Below are positions 15,217 through 60,302 of a DNA stretch of 64,000 bases, in pieces (positions within the stretch are counted from its first letter, which is position 1; each line of letters opens with the position of its first letter). Origin of the DNA: Escherichia coli (lineage in GTDB: Bacteria; Pseudomonadota; Gammaproteobacteria; Enterobacterales; Enterobacteriaceae); the NCBI RefSeq assembly GCF_003334305.1, contig NZ_QOWS01000009.1; one strand, given 5' to 3'. Made by a program: the position numbers and the translations under genes. Below the pieces are notes generated by a model that was not told where the DNA came from, made no database searches, and worked only from the letters and a program-made list of their open reading frames with translations.

Positions 15217-16209
15217 TTACAGCAGAGAAGGGACGCTCTCGCGAACAGCAGCTGGCCATACTCCACACTGAACCTGGCCGATATGCGGCAGTTGCAGCAG
15301 CAGCATGGTCAAACGAGACTGGCCGATACCGCCGCCGATGGTCTGCGGCATTTCACCGCGCAGCAGCGCCTGATGCCATTCCAGCTGCAGACGATCTTCA
15401 TCACCGGTCAGCGCCAACTGATGCTTCAACGTGTCGGCATCCACGCGGATCCCCATGGAAGAAAGCTCAAACGCATCTTCCAGTACAGGGTTCCACACCA
15501 GAATATCGCCGTTCAGACCCGCATGACCCAGCTCTGACGGGGTGCTCCAGTCATCATAATCCGGTGCGCGCACGTCGTGGCGATGACCATCGCTCAGCTT
15601 GCCGCCAATCCCGACAAGGAATACCGCGCCAAGATCTTTCGCTATCGCCCGCTCACGCCCTTTGGCATCGAGATCCGGATAACGAGACAGTAACTCCTGG
15701 CTGTGTACGAAGTGGATCTGATCCGGCAGGAACGGTGCCAGGCCAAACTCTTCGCTAACCGCAGCTTCGGTTGCTTTAATTCCCGCCCAGATCGCCTCTA
15801 CCGTGCTTTTCAGAGTCGAGAATTGACGCTCACCGTCGCCCATTACGCGTTCCCAGTCCCACTGGTCAACATAGACCGAGTGCAACGGAGAAAGACGGTC
15901 TTCATCGGGGCGAAGGGCTTTCATGTGCGTGTACAGCCCTTCGCCCGCGCTGAAGTCGTGTTGCCCTAAGGTCTGACGTTTCCACTTCGCCAGTGAATGA
16001 ACCACTTCGAACTGGGCATCAGGCAGAACTTTCACTTTTACCTGCACCGCTTTTTCACAGCCCGACAAGTTATCCTGCGTGCCATCCCCCACACGGCTAA
16101 GAATCGGCGCCTGGACTTCGATCAGCCCCAGACGTTCTTCCAGTTGGCGAGAAAAGTGAGATTTCACGAAGCTAATTTGGCGTTGTTTGGCAATGTAAGC
16201 GGTTTTCAT
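15217..16209 (-). CDS. asnA: Aspartate-ammonia ligase / asparagine synthetase A (330 aa)
   Basis: [22 protein letters not shown]..., class II aaRS-like AsnA; divergent from asnC. Confidence 0.93.
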
Positions 16210-19620: not shown

Positions 19621-19683
19621 CGCATTAAAAATGCCTGGTAAGCACCCGCTTACCAGGCAACGCATCAAGAACAGGTAATCACC

Positions 19684-22960: not shown

Positions 22961-23494
22961 ATGTCTGAATTTATTACGGTAGCTCGCCCCTACGCCAAAG
23001 CAGCTTTTGACTTTGCCGTCGAACACCAAAGTGTAGAACGCTGGCAGGACATGCTGGCGTTTGCCGCCGAGGTAACCAAAAACGAACAAATGGCAGAGCT
23101 TCTCTCTGGCGCGCTTGCGCCAGAAACGCTCGCCGAGTCGTTTATCGCAGTTTGTGGTGAGCAACTGGACGAAAACGGTCAGAACCTGATTCGGGTAATG
23201 GCTGAAAATGGTCGTCTTAACGCGCTCCCGGATGTTCTGGAGCAGTTTATTCACCTTCGTGCCGTGAGTGAGGCTACCGCTGAGGTAGACGTCATTTCCG
23301 CTGCCGCACTGAGTGAACAACAGCTCGCGAAAATTTCTGCTGCGATGGAAAAACGTCTGTCACGCAAAGTTAAGCTGAATTGCAAAATCGATAAGTCTGT
23401 AATGGCAGGCGTTATCATCCGAGCGGGTGATATGGTCATTGATGGCAGCGTACGCGGTCGTCTTGAGCGCCTTGCAGACGTCTTGCAGTCTTAA
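22961..23494 (+). CDS. atpH: F0F1 ATP synthase subunit delta (177 aa)
   Basis: Sequence and operon order. Confidence 0.95.
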
Positions 23495-25098: not shown

Positions 25099-27371
<2,273 letters not shown>

Positions 27372-51885: not shown

Positions 51886-53223
51886 ATGAGTCAACAACAC
51901 ACAACCCAGGCTTCTGGCCAGGGGATGCTGGAACGCGTGTTTAAACTGCGCGAACATGGCACGACGGCACGGACCGAAGTGATCGCCGGTTTTACCACCT
52001 TCCTGACGATGGTTTACATCGTTTTTGTTAACCCGCAAATTCTTGGCGTTGCTGGCATGGATACCAGCGCCGTCTTCGTCACTACCTGTCTGATCGCTGC
52101 ATTCGGCAGTATTATGATGGGACTGTTTGCTAACCTGCCAGTTGCACTGGCACCCGCTATGGGCCTGAATGCGTTCTTCGCTTTTGTCGTTGTACAGGCG
52201 ATGGGCTTGCCGTGGCAGGTCGGGATGGGCGCAATCTTCTGGGGCGCGATAGGTCTGCTGTTACTGACGATTTTCCGCGTTCGCTACTGGATGATTGCCA
52301 ACATTCCGGTGAGTCTGCGTGTGGGTATTACCAGCGGTATCGGTCTGTTCATTGGCATGATGGGGCTGAAAAACGCAGGTGTGATTGTCGCTAACCCGGA
52401 AACGCTGGTGAGCATCGGTAATCTGACTTCTCACAGCGTACTTCTGGGTATCCTCGGCTTCTTCATCATTGCTATTCTGGCCTCGCGCAACATTCACGCA
52501 GCGGTGCTGGTTTCTATCGTGGTGACGACGCTGCTGGGCTGGATGCTGGGTGATGTGCACTACAATGGCATCGTTTCTGCGCCGCCGAGCGTAATGACAG
52601 TTGTGGGTCATGTAGATTTAGCCGGGTCGTTTAACCTCGGGCTGGCAGGGGTGATTTTCTCTTTCATGCTGGTCAACCTGTTTGACTCCTCCGGTACGCT
52701 GATTGGCGTGACCGATAAAGCAGGCCTGGCGGATGAGAAGGGTAAATTCCCGCGCATGAAGCAGGCGCTGTATGTCGACAGTATCTCTTCCGTGACCGGT
52801 TCGTTTATCGGTACTTCTTCCGTTACGGCTTATATTGAGTCCTCTTCCGGCGTATCGGTTGGCGGTCGTACCGGTCTGACGGCAGTGGTTGTTGGTCTGC
52901 TGTTCCTGCTGGTTATCTTTCTGTCGCCGCTGGCGGGGATGGTGCCAGGCTACGCTGCAGCTGGTGCGCTGATTTACGTTGGCGTGCTGATGACTTCCAG
53001 TCTGGCACGCGTGAACTGGCAGGATCTTACTGAATCTGTTCCGGCGTTTATTACCGCCGTGATGATGCCGTTCAGCTTCTCGATTACCGAAGGTATCGCG
53101 CTGGGCTTTATCTCCTACTGCGTGATGAAAATCGGTACCGGACGTCTGCGTGATCTAAGCCCGTGCGTAATCATCGTTGCGCTGCTGTTTATCCTGAAGA
53201 TTGTCTTTATCGACGCTCACTAA
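51886..53223 (+). CDS. adeP: Adenine permease AdeP/YieG (NCS2/AzgA family, 445 aa)
   Basis: Polytopic transporter ORF; conserved position. Confidence 0.9.
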   Translation: MSQQHTTQASGQGMLERVFKLREHGTTARTEVIAGFTTFLTMVYIVFVNPQILGVAGMDTSAVFVTTCLIAAFGSIMMGLFANLPVALAPAMGLNAFFAFVVVQAMGLPWQVGMGAIFWGAIGLLLLTIFRVRYWMIANIPVSLRVGITSGIGLFIGMMGLKNAGVIVANPETLVSIGNLTSHSVLLGILGFFIIAILASRNIHAAVLVSIVVTTLLGWMLGDVHYNGIVSAPPSVMTVVGHVDLAGSFNLGLAGVIFSFMLVNLFDSSGTLIGVTDKAGLADEKGKFPRMKQALYVDSISSVTGSFIGTSSVTAYIESSSGVSVGGRTGLTAVVVGLLFLLVIFLSPLAGMVPGYAAAGALIYVGVLMTSSLARVNWQDLTESVPAFITAVMMPFSFSITEGIALGFISYCVMKIGTGRLRDLSPCVIIVALLFILKIVFIDAH

Positions 53224-53243
53224 AATCGATAGCGCGTTAAAAA

Positions 53244-53275
53244 CCCGCCATGCATGATTGCTGGCGGGTTTTTTA
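53244..53275. terminator. Bidirectional Rho-independent terminator between convergent adeP and chrR
   Basis: Hairpin CCCGCCA...TGGCGGG flanked by an A-run upstream and T-run downstream. Confidence 0.8.
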
Positions 53276-53276
53276 T

Positions 53277-53843
53277 TTAGATCTTAACTCGCTGAATAAA
53301 CTCACCAAATGCGGTCAATTGCCCGGTCAGGTGGTCCAGCGTACCCTGATCAATCACTTCTCCGGTTTGCGGATCAACTTTGTTCTGAATCACGCCGCCC
53401 ATAAATTCCGGCTTGTTCATCACCATTGCATCGAGGAAAACCAGAATCTGGCGCAGGTGATACTGACAGCGCGCGCCGCCAATCACGCCCATTGAGCTGG
53501 TCTGAATCAACACCGGTTTACCGGCCAGCGGTTGATCCGGCAGGCGGGAAAGCCAGTCGATGGCATTTTTCAGCCCACCCGGTACCGAGTAGTTATATTC
53601 CGGCGTGACGATCACCACACCGTCAGCCTGACGGATCTGTTCCGCCAGAGCTTCAACCGTTGCTGGAAAACCTTCTTCCTGCTGTACCTCAGCGTCATAC
53701 AGGGGAATGTCGGCAATGGAAGGTAACGCATTGACTTCCATGCTCGCCGGAGCAATTTTCGGCAGGGTACGTGCAACCATGCCATTAAATGAGCCTTTGC
53801 GCAGGCTCCCCAGTAACGTAACCACCTGCAATTTTTCAGACAT
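53277..53843 (-). CDS. chrR: NAD(P)H-dependent FMN reductase / chromate reductase ChrR/YieF (188 aa)
   Basis: MSEKLQVVTLLGSLRKGSFN...; flavodoxin-like fold sequence. Confidence 0.92.
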   Translation of the reverse strand: MSEKLQVVTLLGSLRKGSFNGMVARTLPKIAPASMEVNALPSIADIPLYDAEVQQEEGFPATVEALAEQIRQADGVVIVTPEYNYSVPGGLKNAIDWLSRLPDQPLAGKPVLIQTSSMGVIGGARCQYHLRQILVFLDAMVMNKPEFMGGVIQNKVDPQTGEVIDQGTLDHLTGQLTAFGEFIQRVKI

Positions 53844-53864
53844 AATGACTCCTGTGGTTGTCTA

Positions 53865-54626
53865 TCAATTTGGCGAAAAAGACTTCACGGTAGAGAGCTG
53901 GGCAAAACGCATCATCCGGCTGGTAGGATTGTTGGCGCGGCTGTGAATATCCGGCAGGCTTTTCCAGCTGTGTTTGCCATCTAACTCCCAGACACTGAGC
54001 TTTTCAATCGCGGGCGTGACCGCCACGGACCACACTAGCACGTCCTCCGCGTCGCATAACGCTTCTACATGATTTACATGAGCACATTTCAGGCGTCCGG
54101 CAATGGGCAGCAGCTGCAGATCGCGCGGATCGTCATTCAAAACATCACCGGTTAGTTTTAGCACGCTTCGGCGCAGCGTGATGAGCTGCGCCCGCGCTTC
54201 GTTAGGATCGTTTTGTTTACTGATCCATAGCGATTCATTGCTGGAAAAGGTGTGGTTATCGGGCGCGTGTGGGCTATGAAACCCGCGCGTCGCACGCTGT
54301 AGTTCCATATCGAGGCCACATTCACCTTCGGTTGTTAACGCCACGCCAACCATATTCCCGGCATAGGAAATAGAAAACGAAGGCAAATTTTTATCACTGA
54401 AAACCGGTTTACCTTTCGGCAGGGTGACGATTTCCGGCAATTCGCCAATGCCATACAGCATGAACATCAGTTCTGCGAGTAAACCTCTGGACGCCAGAAA
54501 ACGGCTTTGACGATGAGGGGGAATGTTTCGGGCTTCTTGATGACACTGGGAGGGGAGACGAACAGAAATCAGATGTCCTTCCGTTAAAATCCCTCGGGCA
54601 AAGTGAGTCGCCATTTTTCGCTCCAT
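53865..54626 (-). CDS. yieE: Putative 4'-phosphopantetheinyl transferase YieE (ORF 253 aa; start may be a few codons internal)
   Basis: Conserved position; PPTase-like sequence. Confidence 0.8.
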   Translation of the reverse strand: MERKMATHFARGILTEGHLISVRLPSQCHQEARNIPPHRQSRFLASRGLLAELMFMLYGIGELPEIVTLPKGKPVFSDKNLPSFSISYAGNMVGVALTTEGECGLDMELQRATRGFHSPHAPDNHTFSSNESLWISKQNDPNEARAQLITLRRSVLKLTGDVLNDDPRDLQLLPIAGRLKCAHVNHVEALCDAEDVLVWSVAVTPAIEKLSVWELDGKHSWKSLPDIHSRANNPTSRMMRFAQLSTVKSFSPN

Positions 54627-56880: not shown

Positions 56881-56976
56881 GGGCTAAAGCGTCCTGATAG
56901 TAAGGTGACGCAAAGCATACGTGGTGAAGGAGAATCAGGCGAGTTGCCATTTGGACATAAGTGATTTCCTGAGAGG

Positions 56977-57005
56977 CAAGAAGCCAGCGAATGGCTGGCT
57001 TCTTG
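56977..57005 (-). terminator. Hairpin downstream of tnaB (CAAGAAGCCAGC...GCTGGCTTCTTG); weak U-tract
   Basis: 12-bp inverted repeat 7 bp past the tnaB stop. Confidence 0.45.
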
Positions 57006-57011
57006 AAGGAT

Positions 57012-60151: not shown

Positions 60152-60302
60152 ATCGTTCGGGGAGCAATATTAAATGCTTTTTTTTAAGATTATAAATTAC
60201 GTAAGAATTTTAATGTTTAAAAAAAGGGTTGAGGAATAACAGGAGTGCTAACAATGAAGCGAAGCCGCATCTGACAGTCAGAATACGGCTTCGTAAGCGC
60301 GG

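What the first reader, a model, noticed from the sequence alone, without database searches (positions are those of the whole stretch)
53240..53276. Compact bidirectional terminator between adeP and chrR
A single GC hairpin flanked by an A-run on one side and a T-run on the other sits in the 53-bp gap between convergent genes and should terminate both transcripts.
Basis: seen in the sequence. Interest (0 to 1): 0.15.

Follow-up and report, generated by a model that had tools for sequence, protein, structure and literature searches.

The report
Two-way transcription terminator between adeP and chrR
The short gap between two E. coli genes that face each other holds one GC-rich hairpin with an A-run on one side and a T-run on the other, an ordinary two-way transcription stop signal whose RNA ends on both strands already appear in published mapping tables.

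Summary

**Anatomy.** The window is E. coli. adeP (+, stop 53221-53223) and chrR/yieF (-, stop 53277-53279) converge on a 53-bp gap. The gap holds A5 (53239-43), a 7-bp GC stem (53244-50 / 53262-68), a bulged T, an inner 3-bp stem, a 4-nt loop and T6 (53269-74).

**Folding.** The 37-mer folds at -21.7 kcal/mol on the + strand and -21.0 on the - strand (z -5.4 and -6.1). No other 37-nt stretch of the 64 kb folds as well on both strands.

**Published RNA ends.** The K-12 gap is identical. K-12 tables place the adeP RNA end at window 53274/53276 and the yieF RNA end at 53235. Both lie 6-9 nt past the GC stem, so the two transcripts overlap by about 42 nt.

**Conservation.** The element is single-copy in about 5,418 of 5,426 E. 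coli genomes. A divergent strain rebuilt the hairpin tip but kept the stem and both runs. In 64 other Enterobacteriaceae the gap usually holds some terminator hairpin, from unrelated sequence families. The adeP direction is kept in 51 of 64 and the chrR direction in 27 of 64.

**Limits.** The two directions were mapped in separate datasets. Independence from Rho and from polymerase collisions is untested.

The parts
53221..53223 (+). adeP stop codon (TAA). It lies 20 nt upstream of the GC stem.
53239..53243 (.). A5 run. On the - strand it is transcribed as the U5 tract that follows the hairpin in the chrR/yieF transcript. On the + strand it can pair with the U-run and lengthen the stem.
53244..53268 (.). 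GC-rich hairpin. It comprises a 7-bp stem (CCCGCCA / TGGCGGG), a bulged T at 53251, an inner 3-bp stem (GCA / TGC) and the loop TGAT. The hairpin alone folds at -17.2 kcal/mol on + and -16.3 on -.
53269..53278 (+). U-tract of the adeP-sense terminator (T6, A, T3). Published adeP 3' ends map to 53274 and 53276. Its last bases overlap the chrR stop codon.
53233..53242 (-). Published Term-seq peak for the yieF/chrR 3' end, with the dominant position at 53235 (K-12 3895253-3895262, dominant 3895260). This is 9 nt past the GC stem.
53277..53279 (-). chrR/yieF stop codon (TAA on the - strand). It lies only 8 nt upstream of the GC stem in the chrR sense.

Best explanation
This is a single shared, two-way intrinsic (hairpin plus U-tract) transcription terminator.

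RNA polymerase leaving adeP transcribes the GC hairpin and then U6AUUU. Polymerase leaving the yieE-chrR unit on the other strand transcribes the complementary hairpin and then U5, encoded by the A5 run. In each direction the hairpin forms in the nascent RNA while the weak rU:dA hybrid sits in the polymerase, and the transcript is released 6-9 nt past the stem.

The two mRNAs therefore end with about 42 nt of mutually complementary 3' UTR, and neither runs into the other gene's coding sequence. The same hairpin then protects both 3' ends from exonucleases.

What is shown: the structure, its statistical strength, its position, its conservation, and in vivo RNA 3' ends at the expected places on both strands. 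What is inferred: that release is factor-independent, and how efficient it is in each direction.
For: - **Fold strength.** Both strands fold strongly, at -21.7 and -21.0 kcal/mol with z -5.4 and -6.1. It is the best two-strand hairpin in the 64 kb.
- **Canonical layout.** A GC stem is followed immediately by a U-run on both strands. The terminator scores are +41.1 for the adeP sense and +13.5 for the chrR sense.
- **In vivo adeP 3' end.** It is classed 'Primary' at window 53274 and 53276 in two RNAtag-seq datasets from MG1655. The authors list the same hairpin at -23 kcal/mol.
- **In vivo yieF 3' end.** It is classed 'Primary' at window 53235 in the Dar and Sorek Term-seq data. R=1, meaning no read starts in the 67 nt downstream, with p about 0 in all three replicates.
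- **Applicability of K-12 data.** The K-12 gap is identical to the window's.
- **Population conservation.** The element is present once per genome in 5,418 of 5,426 complete E. coli genomes. The sampled variants change the loop, the tip, or the length of the T-run, never the 6-bp GC core.
- **Divergent strain.** Strain 2017-02-2CC has a rebuilt tip (GCG/CGC in place of GCA/TGC) but keeps CCCGCC/GGCGGG, A7 and T6.
- **Other genera.** Of 64 other Enterobacteriaceae with the same convergent pair, 52 have a terminator-like hairpin in the gap. The hairpins come from several unrelated sequence families, and 24 are single two-way hairpins. This is the position-conserved, sequence-replaced pattern expected of a functional terminator.
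- **Not something else known.** No promoter-like site was found in 52000-54500, and no Rfam family reaches its threshold.
Against: - **No single dataset shows both ends.** Neither held table that covers this part of the genome lists the partner gene's 3' end. The RNAtag-seq rows shown around the adeP end list no yieF end, and the Term-seq sheet lists no adeP end. This is probably due to low expression: the adeP signal of 0.6-0.67 reflects one library below the read threshold.
- **Weaker chrR side.** Its U-tract is short (U5 then AACG) and its score is lower. In Citrobacter relatives with the homologous stem there is no A-run at all, so the chrR direction is not universally maintained (27 of 64).
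- **Possible ribosome interference (inference).** The chrR stop codon is only 8 nt from the GC stem. A ribosome sitting on the stop codon would cover the 5' half of the hairpin and could reduce termination when translation is tightly coupled.
- **Mapping ambiguity.** 3'-end mapping cannot distinguish termination from exonuclease trimming back to a hairpin. No in vitro transcription or Rho-inhibition result for this site was available.
Confidence: 0.85

Rival explanations
1. The element is an asymmetric terminator. It is an efficient intrinsic terminator only for adeP. The chrR/yieE-yieF transcript is stopped mainly by something else at or near the same place, either head-on collision with polymerases coming from adeP, with the hairpin acting as a pause site (the model of Ju et al. 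2019 and Wang et al. 2022), or Rho acting on the untranslated antisense-adeP RNA.
For: - The chrR-sense U-tract is shorter (U5AACG, score 13.5 against 41.1).
- Across 64 related species the adeP-sense terminator is kept in 51 and the chrR-sense one in only 27. Citrobacter homologues of the same stem lack the A-run.
- The chrR stop codon is 8 nt from the stem.
- A published model proposes that hairpins in the overlap region of convergent E. coli gene pairs position polymerase collisions that complete termination.
Against: - The yieF 3' end in Term-seq is sharp, with R=1 in three replicates. It lies 9 nt past the stem, just beyond the U5 run, which is where intrinsic release is expected.
- adeP is weakly expressed in LB (CDS coverage about 0.3), so collisions from that side should be rare.
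- The 5-nt U-run and -16.3 kcal/mol hairpin are, from general knowledge of E. coli terminators, within the range of working ones.
Confidence: 0.1
2. The mapped 3' ends are processing products. Transcription actually ends further downstream, for example by Rho within the antisense of the partner gene. Exonucleases then trim the RNA back to the stable hairpin, which would act as an RNA-stability element rather than a terminator.
For: - If the A:U extension of the stem is counted, the mapped ends lie only 1-4 nt beyond the extended helix (53274/53276 against helix end 53273; 53235 against helix end 53239). This is also where trimming would stop.
- From my own recollection, not checked against the text here, Dar and Sorek 2018 report that Rho-dependent transcripts are commonly trimmed back to stable hairpins.
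Against: - Canonical U-tracts directly abut the GC stem on both strands, and the scores are positive.
- The A- and T-runs are conserved or even lengthened in divergent Escherichia. Trimming alone would not require that.
- No read starts occur in the 67 nt downstream of the yieF end (R=1).
Confidence: 0.04
3. The inverted repeat acts at the DNA level, as a binding site for a dimeric protein or as a member of a repeat family such as REP, and not as an RNA hairpin.
For: It is a near-perfect 12-bp inverted repeat (A5CCCGCCA / TGGCGGGT5).
Against: - It is single-copy per genome and unlike the REP sequence seen elsewhere in the window at 40032-40068.
- Other genera replace it with unrelated hairpins that share only terminator features.
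- RNA 3' ends map to it.
Confidence: 0.01

Closest known systems
Bidirectional intrinsic (Rho-independent) terminators between convergent E. coli genes. From general knowledge, the classic example is the tonB-P14 terminator, and many more have been predicted or measured since.
   Same: One GC-rich stem-loop is flanked by an A-run upstream and a T-run downstream, so each strand's transcript ends in hairpin plus U-tract. It sits in a short gap between convergent stop codons, and RNA 3' ends map in or just beyond the U-tracts on both strands.
   Different: Nothing of substance differs. The stem has one bulged base and a small inner helix, and the two U-tracts differ in strength (U6AUUU against U5AACG).
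Overlapping bidirectional termination sites defined by SEnd-seq (Ju, Li and Liu 2019; mechanism in Wang et al. 2022, bioRxiv 10.1101/2022.10.23.513370)
   Same: It involves a convergent gene pair. The transcripts' 3' ends overlap by about 42 nt, and the overlap region encodes a stem-loop.
   Different: Wang et al. describe that class as not resembling intrinsic terminators and as relying on polymerase collisions. This site has canonical U-tracts on both strands and needs no such mechanism. Whether it is on their list could not be checked, because the paper is not held.
The neighbouring yieK/cbrC convergent gap in the same window (hairpin 49830-49857)
   Same: It is a single shared GC hairpin in a 61-bp convergent gap, and the same tables list a published cbrC 'Primary' 3' end just past it.
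   Different: The hairpin sequence is unrelated, and it lacks clean A and T runs. The yieK side reads UGUUCUCAUUAUUU.

Membership tests
Intrinsic (Rho-independent) terminator | A GC-rich stem-loop forms in the nascent RNA, with a stem of about 5-14 bp and a short loop. | tested here: met
   A 7-bp GC-rich stem, a bulge, a 3-bp inner stem and a 4-nt loop. It folds at -17.2 (+) and -16.3 (-) kcal/mol.
Intrinsic (Rho-independent) terminator | A U-rich tract lies immediately 3' of the stem. | tested here: met
   adeP sense UUUUUUAUUU and chrR sense UUUUUAACG (the weaker of the two).
Intrinsic (Rho-independent) terminator | It lies at the end of a transcription unit, downstream of a stop codon. | tested here: met
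   The stem is 20 nt after the adeP stop and 8 nt after the chrR stop. It is the only non-coding DNA between the two genes.
Intrinsic (Rho-independent) terminator | In vivo RNA 3' ends lie in or just after the U-tract. | tested here: met
   Published tables in PMC10687069 give adeP at window 53274/53276 and yieF at window 53235. The K-12 sequence is identical.
Intrinsic (Rho-independent) terminator | Release occurs with RNA polymerase alone, independent of Rho and other factors. | not testable with these tools
   This needs in vitro transcription or bicyclomycin data for this site. Dar and Sorek's own tables are not held.
Bidirectional terminator (single shared hairpin) | The same hairpin meets terminator criteria on both strands, with an A-run upstream mirroring the T-run downstream. 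| tested here: met
   My scan finds the same 25-nt hairpin (53244-53268) as a terminator on both strands, flanked by A5 and T6.
Bidirectional terminator (single shared hairpin) | 3' ends of both convergent transcripts are observed in the same sample. | tested here: inconclusive
   Both ends are observed, but in different datasets. adeP appears in MG1655 RNAtag-seq and yieF in BW25113 Term-seq.
Collision-driven overlapping bidirectional terminator (Ju 2019 / Wang 2022) | Termination efficiency depends on convergent transcription, that is, on head-on polymerase collision. | not testable with these tools
   Only the anatomy matches, namely overlapping 3' ends over a stem-loop. The Ju et al. site list is not held.
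REP / BIME repeat | It is a multi-copy extragenic palindrome with the REP consensus. | tested here: not met
   It occurs at one place per genome (median 1) in 5,418 genomes. Its sequence is unlike the REP at 40032-40068.
Any curated RNA family (Rfam 15) | A match reaches the family's gathering score. | tested here: not met
   The best hits score 22 bits against thresholds of 55-60, and all are terminator-like tails of unrelated families.

The most novel reading that the evidence does not exclude
The 42-nt perfectly complementary 3' ends could couple the two genes rather than merely insulate them. One route is polymerase collisions at the hairpin, so that transcription of adeP raises termination of yieE-chrR and the reverse. 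Another is pairing of the two mRNAs' 3' UTRs into a duplex cut by RNase III. Either would link adenine uptake to quinone/chromate reductase expression.
Probability: 0.07. Interest if true: 0.35.

Novelty: already known. Interest (0 to 1): 0.08.

Why it matters
It matters little beyond annotation. It fixes the 3' boundaries of the adeP and yieE-chrR transcription units: 3' UTRs of about 51-53 nt and about 42 nt, with neither transcript running into the partner gene's coding sequence. It is also a clean, compact natural example of a two-way terminator.

The comparative result is a small textbook illustration of how terminators evolve. The position is kept while the hairpin is replaced by unrelated sequences, and the adeP direction is kept about twice as often as the chrR direction. 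It is not a new principle.

Tried and rejected
- **Built-in promoter/terminator scan.** It missed the site because its stem rule allows no bulge. I replaced it with direct folding, a window-wide sliding fold and my own hairpin-plus-U-tract scan.
- **Rfam at permissive E-values.** It returned only sub-threshold, terminator-like tails of unrelated families, so this lead was dropped.
- **Repeat or mobile-element idea.** A 67-nt search of 5,426 E. coli genomes gives one place per genome, so this was rejected.
- **Literature that gave nothing:**
  - The held supplements of Adams et al. 2021 contain no yieF, adeP or coordinate match.
  - The supplements of Dar and Sorek 2018 and of the nanopore paper are not held.
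  - Ju et al. 2019 is not held under its DOI or PMC id.
  - The SMRT-Cappable-seq supplement lists b3712 and b3713 only as rows of two bare numbers with no visible header and no coordinates, so I did not interpret it.
  - No paper mentions adeP, yieF and terminator together.
- **The 81-aa ORF at 53250..53495 (+), which starts inside the hairpin.** It is antisense to chrR, and I treated it as a chance ORF.
- **Formal covariation statistics.** I did not attempt them. Only five sequences are clearly homologous to this hairpin, and the other genera carry unrelated hairpins, so an alignment would be forced.

Full report
**What is there.** The window is Escherichia coli. adeP lies on the + strand at 51886..53223 and chrR/yieF on the - strand at 53277..53843.

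Base by base, the gap reads as follows:
- spacer AATCGATAGCGCGTT
- A5 (53239-53243)
- CCCGCCA (53244-53250)
- bulged T (53251)
- GCA (53252-53254)
- loop TGAT (53255-53258)
- TGC (53259-53261)
- TGGCGGG (53262-53268)
- T6 (53269-53274), then ATTTA, whose last three bases are the chrR stop codon

Otherwise it is accurate.

**Is it more than chance?** As RNA, 53240-53276 folds at -21.7 kcal/mol on the + strand and -21.0 on the - strand. The z-scores are -5.4 and -6.1 against dinucleotide shuffles, and none of 200 shuffles did as well. I folded every 37-nt stretch of the 64-kb window on both strands. Only 18 of 63,964 positions reach -21 or lower on both strands, and the best in the window is 53238-53274 (-23.0 / -22.6). 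The built-in terminator scan missed the hairpin only because its rules allow no bulge, so it sees a loop longer than 8 nt.

**Terminator anatomy on each strand.**

| | adeP sense (+) | chrR sense (-) |
|---|---|---|
| 25-nt hairpin energy | -17.2 kcal/mol | -16.3 kcal/mol |
| Tail after the stem | UUUUUUAUUUAGAUC | UUUUUAACGCGCUAU |
| d'Aubenton-Carafa-type score | +41.1 | +13.5 |

The score formula is from memory, and a positive value means terminator-like. Both directions therefore look like intrinsic terminators, with the adeP direction clearly the stronger. No sigma-70-like promoter was found in 52000-54500. No Rfam family comes near its threshold.

**Experimental evidence already published.** The K-12 MG1655 gap (NC_000913.3 3895219-3895271, between yieF b3713 and adeP b3714) is identical to the window's. 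K-12 data therefore apply, using window position = 3948495 minus K-12 position. The evidence comes from the supplementary tables of the TRS paper (PMC10687069). TRS is a method for determining transcript 3' ends from RNAtag-seq data, and the paper also re-analysed earlier Term-seq data.
- **adeP, dataset 1.** A minus-strand 3' end has its peak at 3895216-3895228, dominant 3895221 (window 53274). This is MG1655 RNAtag-seq in LB (sheet 'E. coli - Barsheshet').
- **adeP, dataset 2.** A 3' end classed 'Primary' has its peak at 3895217-3895226, dominant 3895219 (window 53276). It is listed with exactly this hairpin at -23 kcal/mol, in the authors' own data; by order of the sheets this is LB RNAtag-seq.
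- **yieF.** A plus-strand 3' end classed 'Primary' has its peak at 3895253-3895262, dominant 3895260 (window 53235). Its statistic is R=1 with adjusted p of 0 in all three replicates. [quoted passage not shown] The sheet header at part 11 was verified.

R equals 1 minus local read-through, measured over the 67 nt downstream. The adeP values of 0.6-0.67 reflect one of three libraries falling below the read threshold, not read-through.

The adeP end lies 6-8 nt past the GC stem and the yieF end 9 nt past it, which is where intrinsic release is expected. The two transcripts overlap by about 42 nt (53235-53276), and neither enters the other's coding sequence.

**Conservation within E. coli.** The 67-nt region occurs once per genome in 5,418 of 5,426 genomes, so it is not a repeat family. 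Sampled variants are:
- a G-to-A change at 53236, outside the hairpin
- a G-to-A change at 53260 in the inner stem, in B-type strains and EC16, which weakens the + fold to -17.5
- an A-to-T change in the loop
- one strain with T5 instead of T6

None of these touches the 6-bp GC core.

The most divergent genome, strain 2017-02-2CC, has a different hairpin tip: ACGCGCTACCGCA in place of ATGCATGATTGCT, with inner stem GCG/CGC in place of GCA/TGC. It keeps CCCGCC/GGCGGG, has A7 instead of A5, and keeps T6. E. albertii keeps the stem, A5 and T6, with changes in the tip. What is preserved is the terminator architecture, not the tip sequence.

**Conservation across Enterobacteriaceae.** A scan for ChrR relatives returned 80 loci from other species. 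In 64 of them adeP converges on chrR within 300 bp. Scoring each gap for a GC-closed hairpin followed by a U-run on either strand gave:

| Class | Number of species |
|---|---|
| One hairpin that qualifies on both strands | 24 |
| adeP sense only | 25 |
| Two separate hairpins | 2 |
| chrR sense only | 1 |
| None by my criteria | 12 |

The 12 gaps in the 'none' class mostly hold REP-like or CCCTCTCCC...GGGAGAGGG repeats.

The hairpins belong to several unrelated sequence families: CCCGCC..., GCCCGGC..., GGGCCAGC..., CGCCAG..., GCCGGC... and GCCCTTTTC...GAAAAGGGC. A terminator is therefore kept at this position while its sequence is replaced, and the adeP direction (51 of 64) is kept about twice as often as the chrR direction (27 of 64). 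Citrobacter gillenii and C. youngae carry a stem homologous to the E. coli one but without the A-run. For this hairpin lineage the two-way property appears to be an Escherichia trait.

**Context in the window.** The window has four convergent gene pairs. Two leave no room for a terminator: mdtD/rbsR overlap, and viaA/asnA are 4 bp apart. The other pair with a real gap, yieK/cbrC, also has a single shared hairpin at 49830-49857, with a published cbrC 3' end just past it. The architecture is routine.

**Mechanism and rivals.** The best-supported reading is a shared two-way intrinsic terminator (confidence 0.85). There are three rivals.
- **Asymmetric termination.** The chrR direction might depend partly on polymerase collisions or on Rho. 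Arguments for: the chrR U-tract is weaker, its stop codon is only 8 nt from the stem, and a published collision model exists for overlapping termination sites. Arguments against: the yieF 3' end is sharp with no read-through, and adeP expression is low.
- **Trimming.** The mapped ends might be exonuclease-trimmed products of termination further downstream. This cannot be excluded from 3'-end maps alone. It would not, however, explain conservation of both homopolymer runs.
- **DNA-level palindrome or REP function.** This is contradicted by the single-copy status and by replacement with unrelated hairpins in other genera.

**What I could not do.**
- The SEnd-seq list of bidirectional terminators (Ju et al. 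2019) is not held.
- The held supplements of Adams et al. 2021 contain no entry for these genes.
- Dar and Sorek's own tables and the nanopore study's tables are not held.
- The SMRT-Cappable-seq supplement lists b3712 and b3713 only as rows of two bare numbers with no visible header and no coordinates, so I did not interpret it.
- No single dataset I could read shows both 3' ends together.
- No in vitro or Rho-inhibition result for this site was available.

**Verdict.** This is a well-known kind of element, and this very instance is already present in published 3'-end tables with the same predicted hairpin. It is ordinary, so interest is low.

Noticed in passing
window 49817-49877 (hairpin 49830-49857): The neighbouring convergent pair yieK(+)/cbrC(-) also shares one GC hairpin (GGCCGGATGTATGAATTACGCTCCGGCC) in a 61-bp gap. 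A published cbrC 'Primary' 3' end (K-12 3898663) lies just past it. The yieK-side U-tract is poor.
   Followed up: partly
window 40032-40068: A REP-type palindrome (GCCGGATGCGGCGTGAACGCCTGATCCGGCCTAC) lies in the pstA-pstB gap. It was one of the ten strongest two-strand hairpins in the window.
   Followed up: no
window 19624-19660: A very stable hairpin (-22.4 kcal/mol on both strands; TGCCTGGTAAGC...GCTTACCAGGCA) lies in the 63-bp mnmG-rsmG gap, inside an operon, preceded by AAAAA but with no U-run after it.
   Followed up: no
window 41642-41678, 56970-57006 and 60259-60295: Strong hairpins lie just past phoU, tnaB and mnmE. Published 'Primary' 3' ends for these genes appear in the same TRS tables. 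For mnmE, the fold listed in the table matches the hairpin seen in the window.
   Followed up: partly
window 15909-15945, 23096-23132, 27005-27041 and 54161-54197: Four other strong two-strand hairpins lie inside coding sequences (asnA, atpH, atpD and yieE). They are probably incidental.
   Followed up: no
window about 31825-36807: An lpfA-D (O113-type long polar fimbriae) operon sits between glmS and pstS. In the K-12 3'-end tables glmS and phoU are only about 5 kb apart, which leaves room for the pst genes but not for a 5-kb lpf operon. The window therefore appears to come from a non-K-12 strain close to E2865, and K-12 coordinates map only locally.
   Followed up: no
loci L005, L008, L013, L014 and L026 (about 3068-3160; L005 about 2795-2860): In one Escherichia sp. 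and several Citrobacter, no adeP was found in the 2.5 kb downstream of chrR. The DNA just past chrR carries a different A/T-flanked hairpin (AAATAATCCAG...CTGGATTATTT or AAATAAACCAGA...TCTGGTTTATTT), which also looks like a two-way terminator.
   Followed up: no
loci L017, L023, L024, L028, L029, L037, L039, L043, L059 and others, adeP-chrR gap: In Enterobacter, Kluyvera, Leclercia, Pseudocitrobacter and relatives the gap is filled by a recurring repeat, CCCTCTCCC-(4-5 nt)-GGGAGAGGG followed by GGGGTGAGGG. It is sometimes duplicated, and is often preceded by a GCCCTTTTC...GAAAAGGGC hairpin.
   Followed up: no
loci L053, L058, L062, L063, L064, L068 and L073: In Buttiauxella, Siccibacter colletis, Shimwellia and Cedecea sulfonylureivorans, 1.3-2.3 kb of extra DNA separates chrR from adeP. 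The adeP end still carries its own hairpin.
   Followed up: no
window 53250-53495 (+): An 81-aa ORF starts at the ATG inside the terminator hairpin and runs antisense to chrR. I treated it as a chance ORF.
   Followed up: no
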